DNA of 64,000 nucleotides, taken from the NCBI GenBank assembly GCA_018812705.1, contig JAHJCZ010000097.1:840-64839 (forward strand), read 5' to 3'. The DNA comes from Candidatus Omnitrophota bacterium (GTDB lineage: Bacteria; Omnitrophota; Gorgyraeia; Zapsychrales; Zapsychraceae). Positions within the stretch are counted from its first letter, which is position 1, and every line of letters starts with the position of its first letter. The notes under the pieces were generated by a model, which saw only the letters and a program-made list of their open reading frames with translations, made no database searches and was not told where the DNA came from. Positions 3,001 through 32,531 of the stretch are shown here, in pieces. A program made the position numbers and the translations under genes.

Positions 3001-4691
3001 GCTTCCAACTCAGGATGCTCCAATGGCCCCGCAGGTACACAAGCAGGATTTGCATCCCAGAAGCAGTTGTTTGCTGCTGAGGCACCAATACTTAGGTCCC
3101 AGCCCCAGTTAGCCATTCTCCAAAAAACAGGGTAAACGCCTTTCTTGCCATCATCGCCGTCAGGAGCATACCCTTCAAAAAAGCCAGTGACATCTTCCTC
3201 AATAAAAGAGTTAGTATCCCCTACTTGAACAATCAGGCTTCTGTCACCGGGGTTCTTGCGATAAAGCCTGTGTTCATCATCCCTTCCGATCTGTTCCCGA
3301 AGAGACCTGTAACAATCTTGTGGACAATAGTATGGGTTATCTGCGCCATCATCTCCTGCAGAGCCTTCGTTGTTTCTTGGATGATCTTCCCACACGACAT
3401 CTGCCACACCAAGATTGATTTGATCACAAGTTGCAGAAAGAGCCCCACAACAATCATTCGGGTCTGCTTGAAGACAGAAGGTCACATTTGGAACTGATGG
3501 GTCATTATTGTAATTATTCTCAACACCTGTATCAAAAATCCATTTGTATTGATTACCATTTACGATGTTGCCGTTAGAGAATGGCGCCACTTGCTGGGCA
3601 GGCGCCCCGCACGAAACAGACTCTCCACATTGACCTGCCCCAATATCACAACAAACGGGCCTTAAAGTAACATCTGTTCCTGAAAGAGGATCAACCGCGC
3701 CAACAGGAGCACAACAAAAATTTGCCTCAGAAAGCGTTGGCGTAACCGTACATGCCGGATGCGCCGCACCAACAGTAGTACACACACCATTAACAAATAG
3801 CGGGTCAGACAATCCCCACGCCTCATCGACTAGATCAGGGTTACCGTCTCCGTCATTATCAGCATGACAATCTGACGCATAAAGAGCATCATACAGGCAA
3901 TCGCCATGCATAAAATCATCTAAAGCCCTAATAAATGCAAGGATCTCAGTACCATCCGGAGTTTGAATTCTGTTGAGTCTTTGGGTGTAATAAAAACCAA
4001 ATCTTGAAACCATATCATTTGGCACAAGCCCCGTAAAACCCCAATTTCTATCAGTATCCATATCATAAACATCGGCAACCTCACCCGGATCAGTAATAAC
4101 TGTTTGAAGGGCTGTCCTAACACCACTTTCGACAAATTGATTCTTAAGCGACATCGTCTCACCGATTATCTTGTTCCACATGCTAGTAATGCCAGGCTGA
4201 ACTACCGTTGCCTGCATGACAACTGATGCAATAGAAAGAATTATCGCAACAATCGCAAAGGCAATGATATACCCTGCCACCGCAGCAGACCCCCCACTAG
4301 TTACAGGGGCCAGAATAATAGCGATGACCGCAATAATGACAACAATGATCATGGAAATAATTGCCGTAAAAAGACTGGTCTTATCACAAACCTGAAGACT
4401 TCCCTTAAGGTTCTCTTTAACAAGCTTTTGAGCATAACTTGCCATTTGAGAAGCAAGTACACTAGCGGTTTTTTCAGCAGCCATTGAAGTCAGCGTCTTT
4501 GCGCCGCTAAGCCGTCCAAGATTTAAAGTAACCGCATAAAAAATAAGGGCGACTGCTGTCATTATTATCAGTATGATCGCAACTTGCCCTTTAGAATCAG
4601 AGGCTCTTCCTAAAGAACTCCTCTTTTTGGTTAAGGAGCAATTCAGTTTCTTTTTAAGCGCCAAGATGTGCTTGTTTATTCTCTGTATCAA
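1..4691 (-). CDS. Giant secreted Cys-rich TadG-like pseudopilin/adhesin-like protein. 3-prime end lies beyond window position 1; at least 1563 codons are in the window.
   Basis: Manual reverse-complement translation is open from a stop at 4731-4733 down to position 1. Candidate TTG start at 4691-4689 follows an AAGAGG RBS; an alternative TTG lies at 4664. The N-terminus (KKKLNCSLTKKRSSLGRASDSKGQVAIILIIMTAVALIFYAV) resembles a TadE/TadG-type class III signal plus TM. The body has many Cys and acidic Ca-binding-like motifs (DNDGDGNPD, DDDGNGN, DWGDGDG). Three C-terminal 20-aa Cys repeats are encoded at about 196-420 (CPNGACEVGENSGSCWQDCP, CPDGVCAGGEDAVSCPQDCP, CGDGICDNLIGEHQTSCPKDCG). It is absent from the ORF track, probably because no stop codon falls inside the window. 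Confidence 0.7.
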   Translation of the reverse strand, partial: MIQRINKHILALKKKLNCSLTKKRSSLGRASDSKGQVAIILIIMTAVALIFYAVTLNLGRLSGAKTLTSMAAEKTASVLASQMASYAQKLVKENLKGSLQVCDKTSLFTAIISMIIVVIIAVIAIILAPVTSGGSAAVAGYIIAFAIVAIILSIASVVMQATVVQPGITSMWNKIIGETMSLKNQFVESGVRTALQTVITDPGEVADVYDMDTDRNWGFTGLVPNDMVSRFGFYYTQRLNRIQTPDGTEILAFIRALDDFMHGDCLYDALYASDCHADNDGDGNPDLVDEAWGLSDPLFVNGVCTTVGAAHPACTVTPTLSEANFCCAPVGAVDPLSGTDVTLRPVCCDIGAGQCGESVSCGAPAQQVAPFSNGNIVNGNQYKWIFDTGVENNYNNDPSVPNVTFCLQADPNDCCGALSATCDQINLGVADVVWEDHPRNNEGSAGDDGADNPYYCPQDCYRSLREQIGRDDEHRLYRKNPGDRSLIVQVGDTNSFIEEDVTGFFEGYAPDGDDGKKGVYPVFWRMANWGWDLSIGASAANNCFWDANPACVPAGPLEHPELEANRLSVVGLPRAPATLTYDTTWVVPSQAQNSAVATDPPIAVDRIRIPNDVIAAAGACAQDAFDDLVVNPALGFWKQGSDRFCSDGDVASDAEWPYFGNCDKSEGGVCAPCLCWELDDLGNWIACTTDDDGNGNVLTYDCPCCKMPCEQLDENGVHLVVPAGDPDNPADWTCDNDWGDGDGSNQTVPADCACGDALAQPAANWPEDVLEDVYYGLSEFLRFGTTLLMKDKKSLINNFDSWYEDLAPWIEPLNPPADRTSVPACYNCYGTAANPTEGILWQWLTALAEIRDRVDLLRVSHVAQVGLGGLCGDAWCVPMPGCATFAGAHEEHDKEENTFDSNVNGVTGDIEDVAACLDYNINDQRILLAVDLADVDGDLDFNEYLPVSIITGGADPGVATGNAQKFKGCWDYCNEANCEFLPRSLVPGFDSIAFQASNDAVVLALENCRDTLGVSTLVPPAPDDPDMSVADCQTVCGSLFPGGTDPYGLNAAPYTVPVWVNPIVNWITQCNVECSNWCSGGAATNFRTAVLLAAAAVPPYPGTMDAVDSQMFINCANSLFNPVVGDGPIGAVNCEAFCAHDPRTGPLDPAFIIDHNILINFFGMAAPMSPWVPSVPEVPVPELANAGSCSFWWDGATDAGAAPGFRQGILDAIVTAGGSCADVAPGGYKDLVDQSYQEAENQVAKFTVRMNFLENRIPEIKNIEEVFQTAENKFSDFLNGPAQDIIQYRISYEDGTDNGLPSAAVYYWQSPPLNETMGVGSGSWHVVRVDVRTPGRCEGRCNPSQTGPQEWPSIKTETHNWGTKRCFFIINYVGTVKARVTRVDQDQTNLGRTFFPNGVPIWDFRFNHPLRPQTGTAFDFNPLGRVCSGGGAAVCPNGACEVGENSGSCWQDCPLCPDGVCAGGEDAVSCPQDCPAPTGFCGDGICDNLIGEHQTSCPKDCGAVTSCCGDLMVDNPPASANVPAAYINTFPDMGGGVRKIYSGALMMDKSVSDGSAADNSECW

Positions 4692-4828: not shown

Positions 4829-5068
4829 TTATGGCATCCAAATCGCGTTCAGCGGGATAGGCTCGTAAAAATACGTATCCAGCTGCTGCCCAATCGACCC
4901 TCCCGACCTTAACAAATCATGATGCGCCTGTCTTCTTGCAACAGGGTCCCTTGAAACCCATCCCATGATCTGTACCATGCTCCACAGCATCAAAAGAATA
5001 ATGAACATACAGAAGGTAAATTCTATCAAAACCTGACCCTTAGATCTTTTTGCCTTTTTTAAAAACAT
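4829..5068 (-). CDS. TadE-like minor pseudopilin (79 aa)
   Basis: N-terminal KRSKGQVLIEFTFCMFIILLML matches the TadE/Flp-type prepilin motif (G then xxxxE[FY]) followed by a hydrophobic helix. It lies between two other pseudopilin-like genes. Confidence 0.55.
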   Translation of the reverse strand: MFLKKAKRSKGQVLIEFTFCMFIILLMLWSMVQIMGWVSRDPVARRQAHHDLLRSGGSIGQQLDTYFYEPIPLNAIWMP

Positions 5069-5101
5069 TGACTTTTTCCCTTTTTTCTCTGTTCAAAGTA
5101 C

Positions 5102-6439
5102 TTATCGCATAAATTCAACGTACGGTTCGTCGGTTGTATCAGTAACCCATCTACGTCCACGTCTATCCGCTATTCTGCTCCTAATAAAAATGTACCTGTC
5201 TCTAATTGCCATGCAGGTAAGAGGCGTATTCCCGCCAAAACATTCTTGCCGCATGTTAACACAAACCTCAATGGGATTTGGCACGCTAGTATCGTCCCCA
5301 ACAAAAGGCGGGACCGTTCGATCAGCATTACAGAACCTCCCGGGTGTAAAATTGCTTAACAGTACCTCCCTTTGAATAATATCAACCTGATCTTTCTTTT
5401 TGGCTGTTCTAATAAACTGTCTTCCTGGAGAGGTCGCATAAAGACGTCCTTCTTCTATTAATGCATAAGTGCCTTCTTCTCCCGGCCTTTGCCCTCTTAA
5501 GAATGTAAAGACCTCCGTATCTCTTTGAAGACCTGGCCGTTCACCGGGGTCCCCTTCTTCCCAAGTACCATCAATATCTCCAGCACCATAATCAATAGCA
5601 TGTATTGAAGTAACAACTCCGTTTGCATCTGAAGTTACGCTGTAAACCGTTTCTTCCATGTAATCTCCATCAACATCATAAGACACCTGTGATGTTTCCA
5701 TCGCAACGTTTCCAGGAAGAAGCGTTCCTCCTCCAGCTTTAGTTTCAAAAGCATATCTGATTTTCCATTGCCAAGAGAAATTGGACCTCATTGCTACTGG
5801 CACCTCGCTCGAGTCTCCATCTCTGTCAAGATCAAAACACGCGTCACAGCCTGCATCCCAATCATCTATGCCAGGGTGATTAGGAATTTTCTCGTAAACA
5901 GCAACGCAGCCAACAATAGCGCCCGATGCTAATCTTGCACAATTGTCTTGCCATGTAGGATGTCCATCGACTAACCCTCCAATGTTTGTAAAACTGGCGC
6001 TTGAAAAAGGAAAATGTTGACCATTTATCCAATAGTCCGTAACTGATAAACTGAAATTTTCATTGGAATCAATGTTAAGAAATAGGTTTCTGCTGTGCGT
6101 GCCTGATCCTGACAGCATGTAAGGAACTCTATCGACTGTACCATATTTCGCGCTTGAGGCAGTTAGCCTGTCTTCGATCAAAACAACCGCAGCCGAATTT
6201 CTTGAAGCATTATTATCGCCATGACTTCCCATCTGTCCTGAAGTGTACATGTACGACATTCTCATTGCCATTCTCATTGCCTTCAAAGCCTGGCCCTGCT
6301 GATATCCATAACCAAGCGCGCTTCGAACAATAAGACCCATCGTAAAAATAAATATTGATCCAAAAACCGCCAATTCCATTGCGGTTTGGCCCGATTCTTT
6401 GACCAGCTTAAAATAACGTTTCTTTCTAAATAAGTTCAT
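5102..6439 (-). CDS. TadE/TadF-like pseudopilin with large C-terminal extracellular domain (445 aa)
   Basis: N-terminus ESGQTAMELAVFGSIFIFTMGLIV fits a TadE-like prepilin. The C-terminal domain is rich in Asp/Gly motifs (DLDRDGDSSE, DVDGDYMEE, GAGDIDGTWEEGDPGE) suggestive of Ca binding. Confidence 0.6.
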   Translation of the reverse strand: MNLFRKKRYFKLVKESGQTAMELAVFGSIFIFTMGLIVRSALGYGYQQGQALKAMRMAMRMSYMYTSGQMGSHGDNNASRNSAAVVLIEDRLTASSAKYGTVDRVPYMLSGSGTHSRNLFLNIDSNENFSLSVTDYWINGQHFPFSSASFTNIGGLVDGHPTWQDNCARLASGAIVGCVAVYEKIPNHPGIDDWDAGCDACFDLDRDGDSSEVPVAMRSNFSWQWKIRYAFETKAGGGTLLPGNVAMETSQVSYDVDGDYMEETVYSVTSDANGVVTSIHAIDYGAGDIDGTWEEGDPGERPGLQRDTEVFTFLRGQRPGEEGTYALIEEGRLYATSPGRQFIRTAKKKDQVDIIQREVLLSNFTPGRFCNADRTVPPFVGDDTSVPNPIEVCVNMRQECFGGNTPLTCMAIRDRYIFIRSRIADRRGRRWVTDTTDEPYVEFMR

Positions 6440-6483
6440 ATCGCCCCTAAAACCATCAGCTTCTGAAAACCTTGAAAATAAAC

Positions 6484-6798
6484 TTAATATGCCCCAGAGG
6501 AAACATATCCAGATTTTGTTTCAACAACATTTGTCATATCTCTTCGAGATGTCCACCAACCTTCAGATGTGTTTAAAGAAATGATCTGCGTGTCCGTGTT
6601 TGAAACTATCCTATGGACGACCATTGTGTTTCCCGTTCTAGGATCATACTGTTCTCCTAGTTCGTCAACTGCAGTTTTCCATCTTCCCTGCAATCCTCTT
6701 TTAAAATAATTACCTATTGATAAAAAAGCTGCAAGAATAACTGTCATCAAGACCAGAAACTCCATTGATGTTTGCCCTTTTTTTATTAGTTTAAACAT
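6484..6798 (-). CDS. Flp-family type IVb pilin, extended (104 aa)
   Basis: KKGQTSMEFLVLMTVILAAFLS carries the Flp prepilin motif (G/xxxxE[YF] plus hydrophobic helix). It shares the YFKRGLQGRWKTAVDELGEQ block with its paralogues. Confidence 0.7.
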   Translation of the reverse strand: MFKLIKKGQTSMEFLVLMTVILAAFLSIGNYFKRGLQGRWKTAVDELGEQYDPRTGNTMVVHRIVSNTDTQIISLNTSEGWWTSRRDMTNVVETKSGYVSSGAY

Positions 6799-6831
6799 AA
6801 TATCTCCTGTTTCAATAGCAACTTCACTTTT

Positions 6832-7182
6832 TTAATCGTTCTCTTGAAAACCTAAACCTGTTTCAGTCGTTGATTCAGAATGCATCCGATCATTATAGTA
6901 ATGAGTTACGACGCCAGCACTTTCTCCTCTTGTTGTTTCTGTTGCCGCGTCAACATCAACAAAAGCATTTACCATGAACCCTTCTTCTATGTCAAAAATC
7001 TGATCCGCATTCCTTTGAGTTCCAATTTGATCGGCAACTGTCTTTATCATTCCCTGCGTGCCTCTTTTAAGGAACGTCCCCATATTAAAAAATATAACCG
7101 TAACCATTCCGACTATTAATGAGTACTCCAGAATGCTTTGAGCCTTATTATTTTTCCAAAATTTCAAATTTACCTTAAACAT
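6832..7182 (-). CDS. Flp-family pilin paralogue, extended (116 aa)
   Basis: NNKAQSILEYSLIVGMVTVIFF Flp motif, plus the conserved FLKRGTQGMIKTVADQIGTQ block. Confidence 0.7.
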   Translation of the reverse strand: MFKVNLKFWKNNKAQSILEYSLIVGMVTVIFFNMGTFLKRGTQGMIKTVADQIGTQRNADQIFDIEEGFMVNAFVDVDAATETTRGESAGVVTHYYNDRMHSESTTETGLGFQEND

Positions 7183-7203
7183 TTTTCCCTCTAAACTAGC
7201 GTA

Positions 7204-7587
7204 CTATTCATATTCCCTATCTGCTTCCCTTGGAGGCTTTGTCACGCTTGTTGTCATTATTCTTGAAAGATCATCATATTCCATTCTGTAAACGCCGCTA
7301 GTGCCTCCCTCGGCAAGAGAAGTTCTTGATCTAAGGCTACGATAAGTTTCTGAATCAGTGTTCTGATAATAAGGCTCATAATGAAAGAATATGTTGCCAT
7401 TGAAGAAACCTGCTGATTGATTTCTTGTGAGCCTGACCATTGAATCTCTGGCATCATAAATTCTTCCCTGAACCACCCTTTGAAAATATGTACTCATTGC
7501 TGTTATTACTCCGATAGCAACAAAAAAAACTATAACATATTCCCCCATAACCGCCTGAGCTTTATTATTTTTAATAATTCTTAGCAT
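7204..7587 (-). CDS. Flp-family pilin paralogue, extended (127 aa)
   Basis: NNKAQAVMGEYVIVFFVAIGVITAM Flp motif. It shares YEPYYQNTDSETY with the 8281..8643 paralogue. Confidence 0.65.
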   Translation of the reverse strand: MLRIIKNNKAQAVMGEYVIVFFVAIGVITAMSTYFQRVVQGRIYDARDSMVRLTRNQSAGFFNGNIFFHYEPYYQNTDSETYRSLRSRTSLAEGGTSGVYRMEYDDLSRIMTTSVTKPPREADREYE

Positions 7588-7780
7588 AAAAAATGCTTCC
7601 CCTTAAAAATTTTAATAGTCATATAATAAGTATACATTATTTTTATCTGATTGAATAGAGTAGGTATCTTTTTTTTGGATTGATAACTTTAACAGTACCA
7701 TAAACTTAAAGAAATCCCTTTTATTGTTTTTGCACAATTTAACAAAAAACCAACTCAAAAATAAAAAACACAGAATCTTT

Positions 7781-7836
7781 TTTTTACGCAAAAAAAAATC
7801 CGGCTTGCCGAAAAACTATTTCTCGACAAACCGGAT
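7781..7836 (-). terminator. Rho-independent terminator on the minus strand between the flp sub-operons
   Basis: Read on the minus strand: ATCCGGTTTG, 19-nt loop, CAAGCCGGAT (10-bp stem with one G-U), then TTTTTTTT. It sits just downstream of the pilin gene ending at 7881. Confidence 0.6.
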
Positions 7837-7880
7837 CTATGTTTCAAACTAAGAACCTATTTTTTACAAAACACCGTTTA

Positions 7881-8249
7881 TTAGCTTCCCCAATATTCTT
7901 GCTCAATATTAGCAATTCTTGAAGTTCCTTGGGTAACTGTTGCTTCGTCGTTAAGTAAAGATGAAGTTACAACGCCGCCGATATTTGTATCAGACGTATA
8001 ACTTACAGTTCTTACTGTTTTTTGTACGTTTGTGTTTCCAGGGGAGAATTGCTCTCCGATATCATCAGCCGCACCTTTTAAGCGACCCTGAATACCTCTC
8101 TTAATGTAGACCTGAATAGAGACAAGAGCACCAATGATAATAATTATCAAAATTGCATATTCTAGTGTGCTCTGGCCTTTCTTTCTTCTTCTATTTAAAT
8201 ATTCAAACATTGTTTTAGCCTCCTTAATTTTACCTCTTCTAAAGAGCAC
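7881..8249 (-). CDS. Flp-family pilin paralogue (true start probably the internal Met at about 8210, MFEYLNRRRKKGQSTLEY)
   Basis: KKGQSTLEYAILIIIIIGALVS Flp motif and the IKRGIQGRLKGAADDIGEQFSP conserved block. Confidence 0.7.
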   Translation of the reverse strand: MLFRRGKIKEAKTMFEYLNRRRKKGQSTLEYAILIIIIIGALVSIQVYIKRGIQGRLKGAADDIGEQFSPGNTNVQKTVRTVSYTSDTNIGGVVTSSLLNDEATVTQGTSRIANIEQEYWGS

Positions 8250-8280
8250 TTCTTATGTTACTAACTGATCAGGTCTACTA

Positions 8281-8643
8281 TTAAAGACCGTTTTGAATAC
8301 CAGCAACCGATACGTCATAAGAAGTTGTCTGACGACCACCCGCTGTTCTTGTTCTAGTAGAATTTTCACCTTTCAAAATAGCATCTGCATCATAACTTTC
8401 GGTCATAGTTTCATCCCGAATAATGTTATAAGTAGTTGATAGATAATAAGGTTCATATTGTACTGTGTTGCCTAAACCATTAGTTTGTGTAGCAAGGTGC
8501 TGTGCGGCATCACGAACTCTTGCCTGCAATGCTCTTTGAGCATACGTTTGCATGGCAATAATACCAGCAACAACCAGAGATATCAAAATTGCATACTCGG
8601 CTGTGTTTTGCGCTTTTTTATTTTTAATCAATTTTCTAAGCAT
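8281..8643 (-). CDS. Flp-family pilin paralogue, extended (120 aa)
   Basis: NKKAQNTAEYAILISLVVAGIIAM Flp motif. Confidence 0.7.
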   Translation of the reverse strand: MLRKLIKNKKAQNTAEYAILISLVVAGIIAMQTYAQRALQARVRDAAQHLATQTNGLGNTVQYEPYYLSTTYNIIRDETMTESYDADAILKGENSTRTRTAGGRQTTSYDVSVAGIQNGL

Positions 8644-8702
8644 TGATTTTACCTCCTAATTTTAACTTCTCCAAATAACTGGATTCCTTCTTGTTCTCCT
8701 GA

Positions 8703-8933
8703 TTAAGGGGTACTGTTAGCAGCAGGTCTTGATGCAGCTAATCTGTCTGCCATGTCTTCCATTCCGTCTGTTCCAGAGTTGATAGTTGTGTTAAAAGCAT
8801 TCTGGAATGGCCCGCCTGGTCCTAAGAATATAATGAGCGCTGCTAAAACAGCAGCAATCAAAATAATGTACTCAACTGTGCTCTGGCCTCTTTTCTTTTT
8901 GCCAGATGTTTTATGAATCATCCTTTTAAGCAT
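8703..8933 (-). CDS. Flp-family pilin (76 aa)
   Basis: KKRGQSTVEYIILIAAVLAALIIF Flp motif. Confidence 0.7.
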   Translation of the reverse strand: MLKRMIHKTSGKKKRGQSTVEYIILIAAVLAALIIFLGPGGPFQNAFNTTINSGTDGMEDMADRLAASRPAANSTP

Positions 8934-9076
8934 TATTTATCCTCCTTCGATAATAACAATCCCTGTTACTAAACAAGGGCTTTTGCTTAATTAAGCCTAA
9001 AAATACACTAATTTTTAAGCCTTACGAAAGAATTGACTCAGAAATAATTTTCTGATCGTCTTTCCTCGCGTAAATG

Positions 9077-9268
9077 TTATTGTGATGCTTTGAATTCTTC
9101 TTGTATTACCTGCTGGGTAGCCTGAACTGACCTATACACGTAGGTACTCATAGCGACAACCGCTACGGAAATAAGAGCTGCGACCATGGCATATTCAATT
9201 AGATTTTGACCTTTATGATTCCAATTTTCCACTTTTTTGTTCCTCGCCATACCGCAACTACCTAACAT
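9077..9268 (-). CDS. Flp-family pilin (about 57 aa from the internal Met at about 9250)
   Basis: MARNKKVENWNHKGQNLIEYAMVAALISVAVVAM; classic short Flp. Confidence 0.7.
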   Translation of the reverse strand: MLGSCGMARNKKVENWNHKGQNLIEYAMVAALISVAVVAMSTYVYRSVQATQQVIQEEFKASQ

Positions 9269-9655: not shown

Positions 9656-11671
9656 CTAAGCTTTTATTTTTTGAGCACTTACAAAAAAACCCTTGCCCTC
9701 CTTTGTTACCAGATGCCTATCGTTTACTCTATTAATAGCAAATTCCAAAACCTCGAGAAAATTATACCGCTCGGGAATCATAATTGTCACAATTAATCGG
9801 TTGGGATGTTCCTGTACAAAGCCCTTTAATCCATAAAATATTGGCACCATAGTTTTTATGTCAACTGCTCCTTTTTGCTTAGGAAAATATTTATCTAAAC
9901 AATACTCATGAAGGGTTAGGATGTAGTCATCAAAAATATCTCCAAGATTCTCAAATCTTCTTTCTACAAAATCCCCAACATGGTCTTCGTGTTGGCTTTT
10001 AATAGGCTCTAGCTTGCTAATAGCATTGCTTGTTTCTTCCTTATTATAGCTCTGCTTAAATGCGCTTGGCCAACGATTTAAATAATTTGCAATAATAGTT
10101 TCAGCTTTTTCTGCAAACATATTAGTTAAAAGGGCTATTTGAGGCATCTTGTTCTTTTCTTTACCTAAAAACACCAATTTTAAAGACTTTTCCTCATTAA
10201 AATGCTTAGGAATGTTAAAAACATCATTCAAAAAGCTCGAAAATGGAACATTTTTTTCAGAATAGTACAAAATACTGTCTCTTTGGCTGTCATAATAGGA
10301 AAAATCGACAAAATCGACAAATTTTTGAATTAATTCCTTAAAAATTTCCTGATAAGGCCTAAAACCAACAATAAACGAGCGCTTAATTGAAGGAATAAGC
10401 GTAAATTCGGTAATTATGTCTTGATTTTCACTTAAAACTTCAATCTTTCGTATTTTTCTGCCAGGAATGTCAAAACAAGCAGCAACTAGCATTGAAAGAT
10501 CCTTTTTGTTAATGCCTTTTTCCCTTAAAACATCCATTACTAGGCACTCATTGTTGCTGATCAATGTTTTTGAAAGAATCGTCATTGCGCTACTTACAGA
10601 CGCAAACAATTCCTTTTGAACTAAATCTCTCCAAAGAGACCTCAGTTGAGCATCAAGTACAATGCTAGTAGAATCCTCAAAGATGACATTAAAAGCACAG
10701 ATTTTGCTTAAAGCCTGTTCCTTTTCATTAAGATATTCCAACTGCAGTTGATTGGAAAAGTCAATCTTCTGAGTCCACCCAAAAAGATTTTCTCTTCCTG
10801 GATACCCTTTAAAACCATTTAATCTCCATAAGGCGTCATTCTTTGAATTTTCAATAGTCTCAACCGATTGCATATTAAACGCTTTAAGGAATAGCAAACT
10901 TGAACAAATATTATTAAAATTCTCTAAACCCATTCCTTTTGAATTTTTTCCAAAAAGATCACCCAGAAGGTTTTCACCCGACATGTCGATCTGAGCAGCT
11001 TTTAAGAACACAACTCCCGCATTATCATACAAGTTACTATTTTTTCTTTCTTTCCCTTTATTTTCTCTCGCAATTTTTACATCATAAAGGAATTGTTCCT
11101 CGTCGAAGAATTTAGGACCAACAGGAACAACATATTCCTTCTGATATTGACTTGATAGAGCTGATTGCTCTTCTTTAATTGCTTTGTTTTCTTCTGCAAA
11201 TACTCTCTCTTCATTCTTCACTCTTTGTTCATCATAAAAGATCTTGCCCTTGCGTTTTCTTCTCTCGTGCTCCTGAAGATCAATAGAGAGCTTTTCAAGA
11301 GAAAAGACTGCCGCTTCTTTTTTTATCTCAAGGAGTTCATTAGGAACACCTTTTTTCTGTTCCTCGTTTTCTGCGGAAACCTTTTTATCAAAAGTAAAAC
11401 CAAGGCTTGAAATGCTATCTAACAATTGTTGTTTCTTTTCTGGCGGGATCTGAAATTTTTTAGAGGTTGCTTTTTTCTGGACTCTTCTTCCTACTGAACT
11501 GCTTAGCATAGTATTTTTCAAAACAGAATTCACCGAAGACTTTGATACCTTAATTTCAAATTTCTTGCTTGTCTGCTCTGATAATTGTCGACAGCTAATT
11601 AAGGGCTCTTCCTTCTTTTTGTTTATAATAAAATCAAACACTTCTTTTTTTAGCTTGTGTACTACTCCCAT
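9656..11671 (-). CDS. Hypothetical 671-aa Lys/Glu-rich protein with an HTH-like N-terminus, embedded in the Tad locus
   Basis: Long ORF with an N-terminal PLISCRQLSEQTSKKFEIKVSKSSVNSVLKN helix-turn-helix-like segment and K/E-rich low-complexity coiled-coil regions. It has no TM segments and I recognise no family. Confidence 0.45.
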   Translation of the reverse strand: MGVVHKLKKEVFDFIINKKKEEPLISCRQLSEQTSKKFEIKVSKSSVNSVLKNTMLSSSVGRRVQKKATSKKFQIPPEKKQQLLDSISSLGFTFDKKVSAENEEQKKGVPNELLEIKKEAAVFSLEKLSIDLQEHERRKRKGKIFYDEQRVKNEERVFAEENKAIKEEQSALSSQYQKEYVVPVGPKFFDEEQFLYDVKIARENKGKERKNSNLYDNAGVVFLKAAQIDMSGENLLGDLFGKNSKGMGLENFNNICSSLLFLKAFNMQSVETIENSKNDALWRLNGFKGYPGRENLFGWTQKIDFSNQLQLEYLNEKEQALSKICAFNVIFEDSTSIVLDAQLRSLWRDLVQKELFASVSSAMTILSKTLISNNECLVMDVLREKGINKKDLSMLVAACFDIPGRKIRKIEVLSENQDIITEFTLIPSIKRSFIVGFRPYQEIFKELIQKFVDFVDFSYYDSQRDSILYYSEKNVPFSSFLNDVFNIPKHFNEEKSLKLVFLGKEKNKMPQIALLTNMFAEKAETIIANYLNRWPSAFKQSYNKEETSNAISKLEPIKSQHEDHVGDFVERRFENLGDIFDDYILTLHEYCLDKYFPKQKGAVDIKTMVPIFYGLKGFVQEHPNRLIVTIMIPERYNFLEVLEFAINRVNDRHLVTKEGKGFFVSAQKIKA

Positions 11672-11706
11672 AGAAACGACCTCTTAGAAGATTTTGTTAA
11701 CATGAA

Positions 11707-11823
11707 AATGTCCATTCTGAACTATAAGATATATTATTTTTCCAGATTGGACATTGTTACATTTTTTAGTATAGCACAATACTTAAATAAACAAGCTAAA
11801 ATATTAACTTTTTTTGGACATTG
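11707..11823. promoter_or_regulatory. Three copies of a TGGACATT motif in the promoter region upstream of the 671-aa gene (candidate operator)
   Basis: AATGGACATT (reverse orientation) at 11707-11716 and TTGGACATTG at 11747-11756 and 11814-11823. A fourth copy, TTGGACATG, lies at 9457-9465 upstream of the last flp gene. Confidence 0.4.
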
Positions 11824-11824
11824 A

Positions 11825-12169
11825 TTAGCTTGAGATCTCTATCTGATCACCAATAGAAATCCCTGCGCTGAGGATAGCGCTAGAGGGAAGCTCTACAACA
11901 TAGCTTGATCTAAAATATATACGGCTAAGCTGAAAAGGCCGAATATCGCTGACTAAACCAACAACAACATTCTCTTTGCTGACAAAAACAACGTCAATAG
12001 CAAATTTCATAAAAAACATATGAATAGAATTACACCTTGTAATAACAAGAGCCTCTCCTTCTGAAAAAGATTCACGATTCAACAATCCAACCATTCTAGT
12101 TAAAAAACTATCTGCGACCTTGGCCTTATCGGCAATTATATTCTGTTTTGTTTTGTTAAGTATTTTCAA
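11825..12169 (-). CDS. DUF192 (COG1430) family protein
   Basis: GLLNRESFSEGEALVITRCNSIHMFFMKFAIDVVFVSKENVVVG matches the DUF192 core. Confidence 0.6.
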   Translation of the reverse strand: MKILNKTKQNIIADKAKVADSFLTRMVGLLNRESFSEGEALVITRCNSIHMFFMKFAIDVVFVSKENVVVGLVSDIRPFQLSRIYFRSSYVVELPSSAILSAGISIGDQIEISS

Positions 12170-12187: not shown

Positions 12188-12505
12188 CTACTCTGCGGGT
12201 TTTGGTGGCAGAGCATTAGTTTTATCATTTTTCTCTGTAGCAGGCGCTTGATCTTTTATCGCCTCAGGAGCCAGTATCACAACCTCAGGAACTTCTATTT
12301 TCTCTTCAGGATTAACATAAATAGTCCGTTTATCAAAAATACTCTTTTCAATTTTTAACCCCCGAGTAACAAAATCATCGAAGCTTGTAGGGACATACCC
12401 TGTGGCTTCAAAATCTCCAATAACCCTGCCGTACGCATCGATCCCATTTGATTGTAAAGAAAAATATCTTTTAATATCAATTGGTGGTCTTCGTCCATTC
12501 CGCAA
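12188..12505 (-). pseudogene. Frameshifted C-terminal segment of the TadA/CpaF ATPase
   Basis: The overlapping frame encodes IDAYGRVIGDFEATGYVPTSFDDFVTRGL, which matches the conserved CpaF C-terminus. The main frame instead ends in a non-homologous tail. A 1-nt indel in the AAA run near 12440-12450 would join the two frames. Confidence 0.55.
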
Positions 12506-14484
12506 GTTTCAGAAATCTGTGTGACCTTTCGAGTTCCATCTGAAAAACGATTGATCTGAACGATAATATCAATCGCTGAGGCGATCATTTCATTAATAGC
12601 TCTAACAGGTAATTCAATACCACTTAAAAGAATCATAGAGTGCATACGAGTAACAACATCTCTTGTAGTATTTGCGTGCAATGTGGTCAAGGACCCGTCG
12701 TGCCCTGTATTCATAGCCTGAAGCATGTCCAAAACCTCAGGTCCGCGACACTCCCCGATAACTATGCGGTCAGGTCGCATTCTCAAACTATTAGTAAACA
12801 AATCCCTAATAGTAACTTCACCTTTTCCTTCAATATTTCTAGGTCGAGATTCCAGTCTACCACAATGGCTCTTTTTTAGCCTCAACTCAGCAGCATCCTC
12901 AATAGTGATAATCCTTTCATTATCAGGGATAAACTCGGAGACAACATTCAGTAATGTCGTTTTACCAGCACCTGTTCCTCCAGAAACAATAATATTCTTG
13001 CGGCCAATAACAGCACAATTTAAAAACAAAACCATCTCTTTTGTCACGCTGTGAAACTTGTTGAGCAAGTCATCCGTATTAAGTCTTTCAGCTCCAAACT
13101 TTCTGATAGTTATCATTGGCCCTCTCAACGAAAGTGGCGGAATAATAGCATTAATTCTTGATCCATCCGGCAAACGAGCGTCAACCATCGGAGTCGACTC
13201 ATCAATTCTTCTTCCTAAAGGAGCAATTATTCTGTCAATAATCGCCCTCATCTTGTCATCCGAAACAAAACTATAATCTGTAAGGACTAGTTTTCCCTTC
13301 TTCTCAACATATATCTCATCTCTACAATTTACCATAATATCAGTTATATCTTGATCCGCTAATAGGTCTTCTAATGGCCCTAAACCTAAGGCTTCATTAA
13401 CGATATCTCTAACCAATCGCACTCTCTCTTCGTGGGAAGATATCTTTCCGCCTGCTTCTTCCGTAAGAAGCGTCCCGACAACTCCTTCCGCCATTTTTTT
13501 AACTTTATGGATGGATTCCGGGTCACTTAAAGCCTCAAGAGAAATGCCTTCCTTGTTCAACCTGTCAACCAGCTTGAGATGAATTTTTCTCTTTAAAATG
13601 CTAATCTCATCTTCCTGAGAAGTATATGCTTTGCCTGAAGGAGCCGTACCCATTTGCTGAGCAATACCATATTTAGCCCAAAATGCTCCTGGACTAGGAA
13701 GATCTTCTTTGTTTCTTATCTTCTCAACATCCATTGCAGGGACAAAATTACTTTCTTTGCGGAAAGAATCTACTAGCTTAATAAAAGATTCTCCAACATG
13801 GCTCTTTGGATTATCAATAACACAAGGAATCCCCCTGTTAAGAGCAATGCCCACTGCCTTTCCATCGGATGGAACATGTCCAAAAATCTCACAAGTCAGA
13901 GCAGACTTAACTTCTTGCCAAGCAACACTTCCACGACTTTCAGACCTGTTCAAAAGCAGCTTGATCATTTTCATCGGAAACTGCAGGCTCTGCAGAACAT
14001 CCAAGCACCACTTTATTTGATAAACAGCCAAAATATCCGGCGTTGCCACTAATAAAATAAGGTTAGAATAGTCAAATACTGTAATAAGCGGTTCATGGAA
14101 AGCTTTCCCTGCATCAATAAGAATATAGTCATATACTTCAGATATTTTTCTAAGATAGGGTTTTATATTATCTGGCGTGATCAAACTGATTTGACGGGTA
14201 TTCTTAACTGCCGCCATAAAGTCCAATCCACAAGTATGTCGTGCAGAAAATCTTCTAATAACGGCATGATCTGTTACTGCGTCTATTTGCGAAAGAACGT
14301 CAACGATCGAGTTCTTTGGAGACAGGTTCATTGTTCGCGCCATATCCTGTCCTGCCTGAAAATCCATGTCGATCAAAAGCACTTTATATTTAGCAAGAGC
14401 CAGGGCTGTGGCCATATTAACAGCGACGAAAGTTTTGCCAACCCCACCTTTGTTACTAAAAATAGTTATTATTTTTGCACTCAT
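12355..14484 (-). CDS. Fused TadZ/CpaE-like (ParA/MinD-fold) ATPase and TadA/CpaF secretion ATPase; the C-terminus continues in another frame
   Basis: N-terminal IITIFSNKGGVGKTFVAVNMATALA deviant Walker A of the ParA/MinD family. The C-terminal half has CpaF hallmarks: Walker A GGTGAGKTTLLNV, IITIEDAAEL, GHDGSLTTLHANT, RFSDGTRKVTQISE. Confidence 0.8.
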   Translation of the reverse strand: MSAKIITIFSNKGGVGKTFVAVNMATALALAKYKVLLIDMDFQAGQDMARTMNLSPKNSIVDVLSQIDAVTDHAVIRRFSARHTCGLDFMAAVKNTRQISLITPDNIKPYLRKISEVYDYILIDAGKAFHEPLITVFDYSNLILLVATPDILAVYQIKWCLDVLQSLQFPMKMIKLLLNRSESRGSVAWQEVKSALTCEIFGHVPSDGKAVGIALNRGIPCVIDNPKSHVGESFIKLVDSFRKESNFVPAMDVEKIRNKEDLPSPGAFWAKYGIAQQMGTAPSGKAYTSQEDEISILKRKIHLKLVDRLNKEGISLEALSDPESIHKVKKMAEGVVGTLLTEEAGGKISSHEERVRLVRDIVNEALGLGPLEDLLADQDITDIMVNCRDEIYVEKKGKLVLTDYSFVSDDKMRAIIDRIIAPLGRRIDESTPMVDARLPDGSRINAIIPPLSLRGPMITIRKFGAERLNTDDLLNKFHSVTKEMVLFLNCAVIGRKNIIVSGGTGAGKTTLLNVVSEFIPDNERIITIEDAAELRLKKSHCGRLESRPRNIEGKGEVTIRDLFTNSLRMRPDRIVIGECRGPEVLDMLQAMNTGHDGSLTTLHANTTRDVVTRMHSMILLSGIELPVRAINEMIASAIDIIVQINRFSDGTRKVTQISETCGMDEDHQLILKDIFLYNQMGSMRTAGLLEILKPQGMSLQASMILLLGG

Positions 14485-14540: not shown

Positions 14541-16193
14541 TTATTTCTTAAAGCTGTAAACAATTGGAACAGTAATATTCAATTCCTGAAGGTCTACATC
14601 TGAAGGAAACCCTGCGTACGGCGCAATTCTTTTGGCCGCTCTTAGGGCACTTTCATCCATAACCTCATGTCCTGATGATTCTTGAATTAAGGCATATGCA
14701 AGTGTTCCGTCTTTTAATATAAGCATATTCATCCTAACAGTTCCTTCCCATCCATATCTTTTTGCCTCTGGAGGGTAGAGAATTGTTTTGGAAATCTGCT
14801 TCTGAACATTTCTTACATACTCAGTCATGTTTTTTGGTATTCCCAAGTAATAAGGAACAGCCGCGGAAGACGAGACTTTTTGCTTATATATTGCAGTTGT
14901 CTTATATTCTTCAACCGTTTCCTCTTTTTCCTCTTCAGGATTGTTACGGTTTCTTTCTAATATAGTTGGCGTCATTGAGATAACTAGCTCTTTATCTGTA
15001 TCTGAAGGATTCGTTCCATGAGACCTGAAAAGCATCCCAATAATCGGTATTTGCCCCATAAAAGGAACTATTCTCGTGCTGGAACCTCTGTTCTCTTTAA
15101 TTAAACCAGCAAGAACCATCGTCTGCCTATCATTTAAAAGAACGTGAGTTGTTGTTGTTTCTGTAAAGAAAGATGTTTCGTTTCCTGTTCCAGAAGCGAC
15201 ATCACTGATCTCAACGTTTAACTCAATATCAATTTTATCTTTTATTACTTCCGGCGTTATCGTTAACCCAATACCATACTCTTTAAAAGAAACATTTTCT
15301 TGTGTTCCTTCTGCGGAGGAGGTTGTTGTCTTAATAGGAATTTCCCCACCAACTAAAAAACTCGCTTCTTCACCGCTCATAACGACTACTTTTGGTCTTG
15401 AAAGAACCCTTGCTTCCCCTTTTTCTAATAAAGCTTTAACAGTTGCAGTTAAAGCTGACGTTCTGCTAAAATCTCCAATCTTAAAAAAGTCACCTATTGA
15501 TCCGTCCATCGCAGGCATGTTTTCAGGATAGGTCAAAGATACGCCACTCGACCCAGAGGACCAATCTATACCTAAACTTTTTGTAAGCGTGGTATTTAAT
15601 TCTGTCATTTGCATGTCCACTTGAATAAGATCCTGAATTTCTTCCTTCCTTACAAGTTTCATAACAAGATCAGCATATCCATCCAATATTGAATCAAGCA
15701 TCTCTTCGTTTTTCTCTGAAACATCCCCAGTGACAAATATCTTACCTTCTCTTTTATTAGGCTCTAATTTTATTCCCTCAATTCTTGCCTTTTTTAAAAG
15801 TGTGTCGATCCTTTGAATAGCAGTATCAAGCATTCCCATGTCCGCAGCTTGAACATTAACGAAAACCATTCTTTTTCCTGCATCATCCCAAACAAAAAGT
15901 ATAGTTTGTCCAGGTTGTTTCGCAATAAGCAAAATCTCCTGGTCATCTGCTTCAACAATATCAGCAATATCTGGATTTGTAATAGAAAGCCTTGTCATGT
16001 TTGAGACCTTAGCTATAGTCAGTTCTCCGACAACCATATAAATCTCGTTTTCATTCACTGAATCAAGATTTTTATAAATGTCATCCAATGCATTAGCTTG
16101 TGCCAATGAAGATGCGAAAAGAATGACTACTGCCGTAACAATAGCTCCTTTCACTGCGAACTTTATTTTTTCAAAAATTCTTTTATTATCCAT
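14541..16193 (-). CDS. RcpA/CpaC-type Flp pilus secretin fused to a C-terminal TonB-C domain
   Basis: Signal peptide; Pilus_form_N-like block (IYMVVGELTIAKVSNMTRLSITNPDIADIV...TILFVWDDAG); secretin core; C-terminal YPPEAKRYGWEGTVRMNMLILKDGTLAYALIQESSGHEVMDESALRAAKRIAPYAGFP, a clear TonB C-terminal domain signature. Confidence 0.75.
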   Translation of the reverse strand: MDNKRIFEKIKFAVKGAIVTAVVILFASSLAQANALDDIYKNLDSVNENEIYMVVGELTIAKVSNMTRLSITNPDIADIVEADDQEILLIAKQPGQTILFVWDDAGKRMVFVNVQAADMGMLDTAIQRIDTLLKKARIEGIKLEPNKREGKIFVTGDVSEKNEEMLDSILDGYADLVMKLVRKEEIQDLIQVDMQMTELNTTLTKSLGIDWSSGSSGVSLTYPENMPAMDGSIGDFFKIGDFSRTSALTATVKALLEKGEARVLSRPKVVVMSGEEASFLVGGEIPIKTTTSSAEGTQENVSFKEYGIGLTITPEVIKDKIDIELNVEISDVASGTGNETSFFTETTTTHVLLNDRQTMVLAGLIKENRGSSTRIVPFMGQIPIIGMLFRSHGTNPSDTDKELVISMTPTILERNRNNPEEEKEETVEEYKTTAIYKQKVSSSAAVPYYLGIPKNMTEYVRNVQKQISKTILYPPEAKRYGWEGTVRMNMLILKDGTLAYALIQESSGHEVMDESALRAAKRIAPYAGFPSDVDLQELNITVPIVYSFKK

Positions 16194-16431: not shown

Positions 16432-17277
16432 CTAAAAATTAGACTCTGCTCCTGATTTAAAAATCTGTATATAAGGACGAACTTCGTCTTCCTCTTCATC
16501 TGCTTCAAAGATATTCGCCTTCTTTTGCGGGACCATCAATTCTGTTCCTTGGTGATCCATAACATATTCAGCTAAAGTATCCCAAGATGCAATTTGAAGC
16601 AACTGCAATCCACCGTCTGTTGGTGGCCTTAAAGACAGTTGTAATTTTCCATTTGCCTGAGCAAATGCAATCAATCCAGACTCTTCCGGACTAATCGCAA
16701 CTGTTATGTTAAGGGACCTGGCCTTTTGCTGTGCTTCATATGCAGGAGCGCTTCCAAGAGGCTTAAAATTAGTTCCAACTGCCAGCACTTGAATATTCTG
16801 GAATAAAACGGTAGTCACATCTTTTAAAGCTTTTGAGTCTTCCGAGTCATCAGGTATCTTTATTTCACCAATAATATCAACAAAGTCGCCTGGATTAATA
16901 AGACCTCCAACCGCTGAAAGAGAATCAACTAAAATAGTAACTGCTCTTTTTCCAGGAGGTGTTCTTACTGAAAAAGAATCCATCTGAACAACTGGCTGCG
17001 CTTTTTCAGTGGTAGCTTGTGTTGCTGCTCCTGGCTTATATTGGCTTTGCTTTGTCTCCACCTTCTTGATTTCTTCACGCTGTCTTTTGATCTCGCTTCT
17101 TAAAACCTCTATTTCTTTAGCAAAACCAGCATTTTGTTTGCCATAATCTCTTGCCAAAGCTTTTGTTTGAGCCTTAATATTGTTTTGGACATATTGGCTA
17201 GTTAAAAACGCAGCAACCAAGCCAAGCCCTATCGCGATAAGAATAATGACAAACTGTTTTTTGTTTTCAATGTTCAT
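16432..17277 (-). CDS. cpaB: Flp pilus assembly protein CpaB/RcpC. The start is probably the internal Met with a GGAGGG RBS.
   Basis: N-terminal TM (FVIILIAIGLGLVAAFL). RAVTILVDSLSAVGGLINPGDFVDIIG matches the CpaB C-terminal domain. Confidence 0.7.
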   Translation of the reverse strand: MNIENKKQFVIILIAIGLGLVAAFLTSQYVQNNIKAQTKALARDYGKQNAGFAKEIEVLRSEIKRQREEIKKVETKQSQYKPGAATQATTEKAQPVVQMDSFSVRTPPGKRAVTILVDSLSAVGGLINPGDFVDIIGEIKIPDDSEDSKALKDVTTVLFQNIQVLAVGTNFKPLGSAPAYEAQQKARSLNITVAISPEESGLIAFAQANGKLQLSLRPPTDGGLQLLQIASWDTLAEYVMDHQGTELMVPQKKANIFEADEEEDEVRPYIQIFKSGAESNF

Positions 17278-17390
17278 TGTACCCTCCGCACTGTTACCCA
17301 AAAACAATTTAAAAAACCACTCGCTCTTACAATACAAGAATTTTTATTTTTGGAAATAACAGAAGCTTGTTTTTCAATTGGCCAAAAAAT

Positions 17391-18326: not shown

Positions 18327-18471
18327 GTGACAATCCCTCCCTTTAAATAATTATAAGACATTTTTAATAATATATTAACAGTATACATTTCCTAAAAACA
18401 AAACTCAAGGCAATTTCCCAAAATTTAACATTAAAATATAATTAAATTTCTTATAAAGAATGTGCCTGCTG

Positions 18472-32530: not shown

Positions 32531-32531
32531 C

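What the first reader, a model, noticed from the sequence alone, without database searches (positions are those of the whole stretch)
12188..14484. TadZ-like ParA ATPase fused to TadA/CpaF, with an apparent C-terminal frameshift
The N-terminal roughly 260 aa form a MinD/ParA-type domain (KGGVGKT) and the remainder is a full CpaF-type secretion ATPase. In canonical loci these are separate genes (tadZ/cpaE and tadA/cpaF). In addition, the conserved CpaF C-terminus (…GIDAYGRVIGDFEATGYVPTSFDDFVTRGL…) is encoded in a different frame (12188..12505) from the main ORF, which ends in a non-homologous tail. A 1-nt difference in an AAA run near 12440-12450 would restore one continuous protein of about 765 aa. 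Possibilities are a sequencing or assembly error, a genuine inactivating mutation, or a slippery-run phase switch.
Basis: seen in the sequence. Interest (0 to 1): 0.6.

Follow-up and report, generated by a model that had tools for sequence, protein, structure and literature searches.

The report
Fused pilus ATPase gene, locally broken
This is the pilus-motor gene of an uncultured groundwater bacterium (Omnitrophota), a natural fusion of a positioning ATPase and the motor ATPase that is normal for this lineage; its reading frame is broken only in this one assembly, so the break is either a sequence error or a very recent private mutation, not a regulatory device.

Summary
Window 12188..14484 (-) encodes a MinD/ParA-type domain (residues 3-246), a linker and a complete CpaF/TadA secretion ATPase. 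After residue 679 the conserved C-terminus continues in the -1 frame.

The fusion is not unusual here. More than 100 Omnitrophota homologues are single ORFs of about 720 aa with this architecture. The same design, "TadZA", which lacks the receiver-like domain of TadZ, is already described in Bdellovibrio.

The frame break is private to this assembly. Three independent assemblies of the same strain (99.90-99.98% identical over 5-21 kb) carry an intact 765-aa gene. The window differs from them by three changes within 18 nt: loss of one A from AAAA, plus two G>T changes. About 41 kb of the window compared with sister assemblies shows otherwise only isolated SNPs and one intergenic 1-nt difference.

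No slippery heptamer, long repeat tract or orthologue with the shift exists, so programmed frameshifting and phase variation are excluded. Error and a genuine recent loss-of-function mutation cannot be separated without reads. I lean towards artefact or an unfixed variant (about 0.55-0.6).

Interest is low.

The parts
12188..14484 (-). Full extent of the tadZA gene as it stands in intact sister alleles (765 aa plus stop). In the window it is one nucleotide short.
   Evidence: L001, L002 and L003 carry a 2298-nt ORF. In L001 and L003 it is identical to the window except at 12433, 12446 and 12450.
12355..14484 (-). ORF as it reads in the window: 709 aa (NCBI MBU0468638.1). Residues 1-679 are homologous; residues 680-709 are an unrelated tail.
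13747..14478 (-). TadZ-like MinD/ParA ATPase domain (residues 3-246). It has the deviant Walker A SNKGGVGKT (K12, K17), D39/D41 and D124. There is no receiver-like domain ahead of it.
   Evidence: The residues listed are invariant in 46 homologues.
13615..13746 (-). Linker (residues 247-290), predicted disordered. It contains the conserved motif PGAFWAKYGI (residues 265-274, window 13663..13692).
   Evidence: pLDDT <50 for residues 251-291; F268, W269 and G273 invariant
13453..13614 (-). CpaF N-terminal helical domain (residues 291-344, equivalent to NTD1).
   Evidence: helices 291-311, 316-320, 322-344. NTD1 of CpaF is described in PMC11300603.
12448..13437 (-). CpaF NTD2 plus the RecA-like C-terminal domain, still in the main frame (residues 350-679). 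It includes Walker A GGTGAGKTT (residues 502-510, window 12955..12981), Walker B E578 and the His box H603.
12433..12450 (-). The lesion. On the minus strand, CAAAAGGGGATCGATGCGGAC has become CAAA-TGGGATCGATGCGTAC: one base lost and two G>T changes.
12358..12447 (-). Non-homologous 30-aa tail of the main frame (the stop codon is 12355..12357).
   Evidence: no protein in the database carries this tail
12188..12445 (-). Out-of-frame (-1) conserved CpaF C-terminus. It comprises the loop-26 hairpin, the last beta-strand, two helices, and a lineage-specific disordered extension of about 45 aa, plus the stop codon.
   Evidence: conserved GxDxxG...TGYxP...RG; E688-694, H701-707, H714-717 at pLDDT 73-90; residues 721 onward disordered

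Best explanation
The gene is the TadZA-type motor ATPase of a Tad (Flp, type IVc) pilus locus in an Omnitrophota genome.

Architecture: a TadZ-like MinD/ParA domain without the receiver-like N-terminal domain is joined by a disordered linker to a complete CpaF/TadA hexameric secretion ATPase.

Inferred function: the CpaF part powers pilus extension and retraction, and the ParA-like part couples the motor to a positioning or assembly cue, as proposed for Bdellovibrio TadZA.

The frame break is not part of how the gene works. It is a private three-change lesion within 18 nt, seen only in this assembly. It removes the last beta-hairpin (the CpaF loop-26 equivalent) and the two C-terminal helices. 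It is most likely a sequencing, library-damage or assembly artefact, or an unfixed minority variant picked up by the assembler.
For: Identity and architecture:
- establish the two domains.
- more than 100 Omnitrophota homologues (63-93% identity) are single proteins of about 716-790 aa with ParA plus T2SSE domains.
- Locus context: CpaB, a CpaC secretin, an Flp pilin and pilin-like genes.
- in other phyla the homologous ParA domain sits in a separate receiver-plus-ParA gene directly upstream of cpaF. It is fused and lacks the receiver domain in Omnitrophota and Bdellovibrionota.
- The Bdellovibrio TadZA fusion, also without the receiver-like domain, is described in bioRxiv 10.64898/2026.07.08.737194.

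The lesion is private:
- three independent assemblies (GCA_018825605.1, GCA_018896855.1 and Logan SRR2544004) of the same strain hold an intact 765-aa gene.
- The window and L001 differ at 5 positions in 20,642 nt, and 3 of those lie within 18 nt. By my own rough calculation, the chance of that under independence is about 1e-5.
- a further 21 kb or so shows only isolated SNPs. The only other indel is intergenic and is shared by two assemblies.
- sister species (24+ contigs for P0001) are all intact, and none carries the window's bases.
- the lost segment is conserved.
- the lost segment is confidently folded in the model.

Leaning to artefact (inference): the changes form a cluster of one indel plus two G>T. 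G>T is the signature of oxidative template damage and a known Illumina substitution bias (my own knowledge). They fall in a strongly conserved gene, and the downstream out-of-frame sequence shows no decay at all.
Against: - No reads were available, so an artefact is not shown.
- The window contig is long (65 kb) and otherwise very clean, which argues for adequate coverage.
- The window carries at least two private isolated SNPs (17769, 48945), so it is a slightly distinct genotype in which a real mutation could sit.
- Error-prone repair can produce clustered changes in vivo.
- Loss of pilus function is a common adaptive event.
- The functional role assigned to the TadZ-like domain is by analogy only.
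Confidence: 0.55

Rival explanations
1. The lesion is a genuine, recent loss-of-function mutation fixed or dominant in the sampled subpopulation. It would have arisen as one complex event, for example error-prone bypass of clustered oxidised guanines. The result is a Tad-defective variant of the strain, possibly favoured in planktonic cells or under phage pressure.
For: - The window is a distinct genotype with private SNPs.
- Real indel polymorphism exists among these assemblies (18375-18377).
- The contig is long and otherwise agrees with the sister assemblies to 99.97-100%.
- The intact allele from SRR2544004 comes from an attached biofilm sample (PMC5364579), where adhesion pili would be needed.
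Against: - No second assembly or protein fragment carries the variant tail.
- Three changes in 18 nt is rare for a natural event.
- The gene is under strong purifying selection everywhere else.
- The out-of-frame part shows no downstream decay.
Confidence: 0.38
2. The break is a regulated recoding or switching site, either programmed -1 ribosomal frameshifting or homopolymer phase variation. Full-length TadZA would then be made only sometimes.
For: A -1 shift at the break would restore the protein. The intact allele happens to contain A_AAG_GGG in frame at this spot.
Against: - The window's own sequence has no X_XXY_YYZ heptamer anywhere in the overlap 12358-12505 (read directly).
- The runs are only A3 and G3, and A4/G4 in the intact allele.
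- The alleles differ by two substitutions as well as length.
- All of about 120 listed homologues and all sister-strain and sister-species alleles are in one frame.
- Sister species have CAA AAA GGG/GGT, which is not a slippery heptamer.
Confidence: 0.02
3. The fusion itself is an artefact: a lost stop codon or an error joining separate tadZ and tadA genes in this assembly.
For: In most phyla the two genes are adjacent, separate and often in the same frame.
Against: - Single-ORF architecture is found in more than 100 homologues from many independent assemblies, in both Omnitrophota representative genomes among the loci returned by the scan, and in a complete Bdellovibrio genome.
- A conserved linker motif spans the junction.
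- The architecture has been published for Bdellovibrio.
Confidence: 0.01

Closest known systems
TadZA fusion ATPase of Bdellovibrio bacteriovorus (tad locus 1; bioRxiv 10.64898/2026.07.08.737194)
   Same: [quoted passage not shown]
- It is encoded next to the rcpA/cpaC secretin.
- Fused forms from Bdellovibrionota and Omnitrophota fall on one side of the tree, away from split forms, in the concatenated NJ analysis (bootstrap 90/100).
   Different: - Identity is only about 38-42% overall and 25-29% in the TadZ part.
- A common origin is not supported by the domains taken separately (bootstrap 45/100 for the CpaF part, 0/100 for the TadZ part).
- The RomR partner and polar dynamics are unknown for Omnitrophota.
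- The window lineage adds a disordered C-terminal extension of about 45 aa.
- The tadB/tadC genes are not adjacent here.
CpaF/TadA of Caulobacter crescentus (PDB 8rkd, 8rjf, 9e24; PMC11300603)
   Same: - Residues 350-704 align at E 2e-110, with Walker A, Walker B (E578 = E357), the His box (H603 = H382) and the loop-26 hairpin (D685 = H463) all in register.
- The role is the same: the single bifunctional motor of a Tad pilus.
   Different: - The disordered NTD0 of CpaF is replaced by a folded ParA-type domain plus linker.
- In the window copy, everything from loop 26 onward is out of frame.
Canonical TadZ/CpaE (Aggregatibacter TadZ, Eubacterium rectale TadZ, Caulobacter CpaE)
   Same: - The ATPase domain is homologous (24-31% identity, 72-124 bits to the ParA domains of genes directly upstream of cpaF).
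- Its position immediately before tadA is the same.
   Different: - There is no N-terminal receiver-like domain; the P-loop is at residue 12, against about 150-180 in split forms.
- The deviant Walker A is the fully canonical KGGVGKT.
- By pairwise sequence the domain is nearer to solved MinD structures than to any solved TadZ, none of which appears among the 60 PDB hits listed, all with E at most 0.22 (83 sequences matched at E up to 1).
- It is covalently joined to the motor.
MinD (bacterial and archaeal septum-site ATPase)
   Same: MinD is the best NCBIfam and PDB sequence match for residues 3-246 (E 1e-25; 4v03 at E 4e-15). The signature lysine and switch aspartates are present.
   Different: - Scores are far below the MinD family cut-offs (90 against 213 bits).
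- There is no minC or minE context.
- The domain sits in a pilus locus, fused to a secretion ATPase.

Membership tests
CpaF/TadA Tad-pilus secretion ATPase | T2SSE ATPase core with Walker A, Walker B and His box | tested here: met
   Pfam T2SSE at E 6e-59. GGTGAGKTT at residues 502-510, with E578 and H603 aligned to CpaF E357 and H382.
CpaF/TadA Tad-pilus secretion ATPase | Complete C-terminal domain in one reading frame | tested here: not met
   The window ORF leaves the homologous frame after residue 679. The feature is met in the sister alleles L001-L003.
CpaF/TadA Tad-pilus secretion ATPase | Encoded in a locus with CpaB/RcpC, a CpaC/RcpA secretin and an Flp pilin | tested here: met
   RcpC, Secretin and Flp_Fap hits in neighbouring ORFs. 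The arrangement is syntenic in L001, L090 and L093.
CpaF/TadA Tad-pilus secretion ATPase | Adjacent platform genes tadB/tadC | tested here: inconclusive
   The neighbours of tadZA were scanned and none has a T2SSF hit. None of the 20 larger ORFs scanned elsewhere in the window has one either. However, not every ORF of the 64 kb was scanned against Pfam, and the genes may lie elsewhere in the genome.
TadZ/CpaE | ParA/MinD-fold ATPase domain homologous to that of genes directly upstream of cpaF | tested here: met
TadZ/CpaE | N-terminal atypical receiver domain | tested here: not met
   The P-loop starts at residue 12. Split homologues carry 125-170 extra N-terminal residues.
TadZ/CpaE | Polar localisation and recruitment of TadA | not testable with these tools
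   Requires cell biology; the organism is uncultured.
TadZA fusion (Bdellovibrio type) | One ORF comprising a receiver-less TadZ region, a linker and TadA | tested here: met
.
TadZA fusion (Bdellovibrio type) | Common descent with the Bdellovibrio fusion | tested here: inconclusive
   NJ bootstrap for a clade of all fused forms: 90/100 concatenated, 45/100 for the CpaF part, 0/100 for the TadZ part.
Programmed -1 ribosomal frameshift | Slippery X_XXY_YYZ heptamer at the shift site, and a shift conserved in orthologues | tested here: not met
   No heptamer in 12358-12505. All orthologues are in frame.
Homopolymer phase variation | A long mononucleotide tract whose length alone varies between alleles | tested here: not met
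   The tracts are A3/G3 against A4/G4, and two substitutions accompany the indel.

The most novel reading that the evidence does not exclude
Two readings are not excluded.

(a) The receiver-less TadZ-TadA fusion marks a distinct Tad subtype that arose once. It would be shared by Omnitrophota, Bdellovibrionota and a few other lineages with predatory or epibiotic lifestyles. In that case the Bdellovibrio polarity-coupling mechanism would generalise to a whole uncultured phylum.

(b) The window's lesion is real and marks a naturally Tad-defective subpopulation in deep groundwater.

The probability given is for (a).
Probability: 0.4. Interest if true: 0.45.

Novelty: new member of a known kind. 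Interest (0 to 1): 0.2.

Why it matters
For the scan, the practical value is negative. A striking-looking fusion with a frameshift turns out to be the standard gene of the lineage plus a lesion private to one assembly. NCBI annotates the truncated 709-aa product as a normal TadA, and it should be treated with caution.

The modest positive value is comparative. The TadZA architecture was very recently shown to link the Tad motor to cell polarity in Bdellovibrio. It is the rule in Omnitrophota, a phylum suspected of predation or parasitism via Tad pili (PMC10066038). This offers hundreds of natural sequence variants and a conserved linker motif (PGxFWxK[FY]GI) for anyone studying that coupling.

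Tried and rejected
1. Exact-pattern scans for either allele (CTTTACAATCAAAN{1,2}GGGATCGATGCGKACGG...) in metagenome contigs and genome contigs gave 0 hits. There is therefore no independent copy of the variant, and the strain is not in those collections at all.

2. A protein search with the last 111 aa of the window ORF, including the aberrant tail, found only ordinary CpaF C-terminal fragments. The high apparent coverage was spurious extension of the alignments.

3. Look-ups of the exact 709-aa product, the DUF192 neighbour and the 671-aa neighbour returned only the three wild-type contigs. The window's own contig is not in the gene-position index.

4. I looked for a donor for a templated change (gene conversion or template switch). 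The longest match elsewhere in the window spanning a changed base is 11 nt, which is chance level. The change does not improve a local hairpin: -15.1 against -15.0 kcal/mol.

5. I tested import from a co-occurring sister species. Their alleles do not carry the window's bases.

6. Programmed frameshifting and phase variation were rejected for the reasons given under the rival explanations.

7. Solved TadZ structures do not appear among the PDB sequence hits for the N-terminal domain. The TadZ assignment therefore rests on homology to the ParA domains of cpaE/tadZ genes next to cpaF.

8. PF27713, listed in the precomputed annotations, is absent from the local Pfam copy, so its position could not be checked.

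9. The AlphaFold model of the close homologue P0001 is mediocre overall (mean pLDDT 64.8). I used it only for the well-predicted C-terminal sheet and helices and for the disordered linker.
Full report
**What is in the sequence**

On the minus strand, 12355..14484 is a 709-aa ORF, and 12188..12505 is a 105-aa ORF in the -1 frame that overlaps its end.

Pfam places ParA/MinD-type families (AAA_31, CbiA, ParA; E 1e-18 to 3e-12) on residues 4-239, with the deviant Walker A SNKGGVGKT at residues 10-18. It places T2SSE (E 6e-59) on residues 366-646. NCBIfam's best hits are TadA-family, VirB11 and FlaI-type ATPases for the C-terminal part and MinD for the N-terminal part.

Solved Caulobacter CpaF aligns to residues 350-704 of the intact allele at E 2e-110. 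The alignment runs straight across the break (...FLYNQKGIDADGRVIGDFEATG... against ...FVYEITGEDEHGKVVGKHRSTG...). The -1 frame is therefore the homologous continuation, and the 30-aa main-frame tail is not.

The frames change at C-AAA-T-GGG (window 12443-12450).

**The surrounding locus**

The gene lies in a Tad/Flp pilus locus. In order it contains:
- CpaB/RcpC (16432..17337);
- a CpaC/RcpA secretin with an added TonB_C domain (14541..16193);
- this gene;
- a DUF192 gene;
- a 671-aa protein with no Pfam hit above the curated cut-off (only a weak HTH-type match);
- an Flp pilin (9077..9268);
- a run of pilin-like genes.

The rest of the window is the chromosomal origin region (dnaA, dnaN, gyrB, gyrA, yidC, parA, parB) plus housekeeping genes. 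All of these are intact single ORFs with full-length domain matches.

The closest proteins are all from Candidatus Omnitrophota. One sister contig comes from run SRR2544004, a biofilm metagenome from deep groundwater at the Aspo Hard Rock Laboratory, sequenced on Illumina HiSeq 2x150 (PMC5364579).

**The fusion is normal for the lineage and is a known kind**

The homologue search returned 7,922 proteins. All but one of the 120 best listed (63-93% identity; all but one of them 716-790 aa) combine ParA-type and T2SSE domains in one polypeptide; the exception is P0008, a 1158-aa protein without ParA-type domains.

In a scan of one genome per species, the full-length match is a single open frame in 12 loci:
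- two Omnitrophota;
- six Bdellovibrionota or Oligoflexia, including the complete genome of Bdellovibrio sp. HCB288;
- WOR-3, Eremiobacterota and two uncultured lineages.

In 52 other loci, a stop codon or a frame change near residue 240-290 separates two adjacent genes. These loci come from Firmicutes, Chloroflexota, Actinomycetota, Acidobacteriota, Nitrospirota, Planctomycetota, Proteobacteria and Desulfobacterota.

In the split loci I examined, the upstream gene has a further 125-170 N-terminal residues, often an obvious receiver domain (...IRVLIVDDI...). These are canonical CpaE/TadZ genes followed by cpaF, tadB and tadC. The fused forms start 10-20 residues before the P-loop. One exception is the Eremiobacterota locus L050, whose frame is open about 298 aa upstream of the match. 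The window's N-terminal domain aligns end to end with those TadZ/CpaE ATPase domains (24-31% identity, 72-124 bits).

A 2026 preprint describes exactly this architecture in Bdellovibrio bacteriovorus as an "atypical TadZA fusion". It lacks the atypical receiver domain, binds the polarity hub RomR through its TadZ-linker region, and moves dynamically between poles (bioRxiv 10.64898/2026.07.08.737194). The large Omnitrophota genome study reports Tad complexes, and TadB/C grouping with Bdellovibrionales. The term searches I ran in that paper turned up no mention of the fusion (PMC10066038).

My neighbour-joining trees put all fused forms together with 90/100 bootstrap on the concatenated domains. 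Support is only 45/100 for the CpaF part and 0/100 for the TadZ part, and Omnitrophota and Bdellovibrionota are not resolved as sisters. A single origin of the fusion is therefore suggested but not shown.

**The frame break is private to this assembly**

The window ORF is in NCBI as MBU0468638.1. The same 90% cluster holds a 765-aa protein, P0122. It is encoded on three independent contigs:
- GCA_018825605.1 (L001);
- GCA_018896855.1 (L002);
- a Logan assembly of SRR2544004 (L003).

Across the 2,298-nt gene, L001 and L003 are identical to the window except at three positions in an 18-nt stretch. On the minus strand, CAAAAGGGGATCGATGCGGAC has become CAAA-TGGGATCGATGCGTAC. That is one base lost from the A4G4 tract plus two G>T changes, the second of which would make D685Y.

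Over 20,642 aligned bases the window and L001 differ at only five positions, and three of them form this cluster. A further 21 kb or so of the window compared with other contigs of the same strain shows only isolated SNPs. The only other indel is an intergenic A-run difference that is shared by pairs of assemblies, and is therefore real variation.

Sister species at 83-86% nucleotide identity are intact. One of them (P0001) is represented by 24+ contigs. None carries the window's bases.

No other assembly or protein fragment carries the aberrant tail. Exact-pattern scans of two large collections found neither allele.

**What the break would do**

By the CpaF alignment, residue D685 corresponds to CpaF H463, at the tip of loop 26 between beta-strands 14 and 15. 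In the closed state that loop contacts the neighbouring subunit of the hexamer.

In an AlphaFold model of the 93%-identical homologue P0001, residues 669-682 and 688-694 form a hairpin in the C-terminal sheet. Helices 701-707 and 714-717 follow, all at pLDDT 73-90. Residues 721 onward are disordered.

The segment is conserved across 119 Omnitrophota homologues (QKGIDxDGxVxGxFxxTGYxP...F.TRG).

The window ORF keeps all catalytic motifs. It replaces one sheet strand and both terminal helices with 30 unrelated residues. I infer that this would impair folding or hexamer cycling.

**Explanations for the break**

Programmed -1 frameshifting and phase variation are excluded:
- the overlap 12358-12505 has no X_XXY_YYZ heptamer;
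- the runs are 3-4 nt;
- the alleles differ by substitutions as well as length;
- every orthologue is in frame.

The intact allele's in-frame A_AAG_GGG is not conserved in sister species, so I regard it as coincidence.

A templated origin is not supported. No donor longer than 11 nt exists in the window, and the change brings no gain in hairpin stability.

That leaves two options: (i) an artefact of sequencing, library damage or assembly, or a minority variant chosen by the assembler; or (ii) a genuine recent complex mutation.

For (i):
- the changes are tightly clustered, an indel with two G>T transversions;
- they hit a gene under strong purifying selection;
- there is no independent support for the variant.

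For (ii):
- the contig is long and otherwise clean;
- the window is a slightly distinct genotype with private SNPs at 17769 and 48945;
- real small polymorphisms exist among these assemblies;
- pilus loss is a plausible adaptive event.

I put (i) at about 0.55-0.6 and (ii) at about 0.38. Only the reads can decide.

**Verdict**

The finding is real as an observation but ordinary in meaning. The gene is a TadZA-type Tad pilus ATPase, standard for Omnitrophota and of a kind already described in Bdellovibrio, carrying a private local lesion in one metagenome-assembled genome.

Novelty: a new member of a known kind. Interest: about 0.2.

The only mildly new point is comparative. The receiver-less TadZ-TadA fusion is the rule across a whole uncultured phylum, and it carries a conserved linker motif.

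Noticed in passing
window 14541..16193 (-): The CpaC/RcpA secretin (pilus N-terminal domain plus Secretin domain) carries a C-terminal TonB_C domain (residues 472-547, E 6e-15). The same architecture is present in the sister species L090 and L093. I did not examine whether this secretin-TonB_C fusion has been described before.
   Followed up: partly
window 13663..13692 (-), residues 265-274 of TadZA: The otherwise disordered TadZ-TadA linker contains a conserved motif, PGxFWxK[FY]GI. F268, W269 and G273 are invariant in 46 homologues. It resembles a short amphipathic, MinD-like membrane- or partner-binding element. In Bdellovibrio the TadZ-linker region is what binds RomR.
   Followed up: partly
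window 9656..12169 (-): A DUF192 gene (11825..12169) and a 671-aa protein with no Pfam hit above the curated cut-off (only a weak HTH-type match) sit between tadZA and the flp pilin gene. The arrangement is syntenic in the same strain and in two sister species. In canonical loci tadB/tadC occupy this position.
   Followed up: no
window 1..4690 (-): A giant ORF starts at about 4690 and runs off the start of the window (more than 1,560 aa; called as 1,564-1,598 aa in sister species). It lies directly downstream of the pilin cluster, and probably corresponds to the 'big ORF' trait reported for Omnitrophota (PMC10066038).
   Followed up: no
window 4829..9268 (-): A run of about nine small genes with Flp / class-III-signal-type N-termini (...GQS.[LV]EY...), plus a 445-aa TadG-like protein. 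This is an unusually large pilin and minor-pilin set for a Tad locus.
   Followed up: no
whole window: The ORFs scanned (the neighbours of tadZA and 20 larger ORFs elsewhere) include no tadB/tadC (T2SSF) or prepilin peptidase gene. Not every ORF of the 64 kb was scanned. If these genes exist, the Tad system of this genome is split over more than one locus.
   Followed up: partly
window 23957..37504: Chromosomal replication-origin neighbourhood: gyrA, gyrB, dnaN and dnaA (30584..31918, -), then yidC, parA (34938..35777) and parB on the plus strand. The Tad locus lies about 15 kb from dnaA.
   Followed up: no
window 18375..18377: An intergenic A-run length polymorphism. The window and L001 have AA; L002 and L006 have AAA. 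Because each state is shared by two assemblies, it is real strain-level variation. It shows these Aspo populations are not strictly clonal.
   Followed up: yes
L001 8345..10642 (intact allele), equivalent to window 12443..12450: The intact allele has A_AAG_GGG in the reading frame, formally an X_XXY_YYZ slippery heptamer, exactly where the window is broken. Sister species have CAA AAA GGG/GGT instead, so it is probably coincidence.
   Followed up: yes
L050 (Eremiobacterota), L077 (WOR-3), L011, L036: Single-ORF TadZ-TadA fusions also occur outside Omnitrophota and Bdellovibrionota. Some have divergent P-loops (for example GKPGEGKS, GPQRGMGKT). L050 is open for about 298 aa upstream of the match and may have kept an N-terminal extension. 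The fusion may therefore have arisen more than once.
   Followed up: partly
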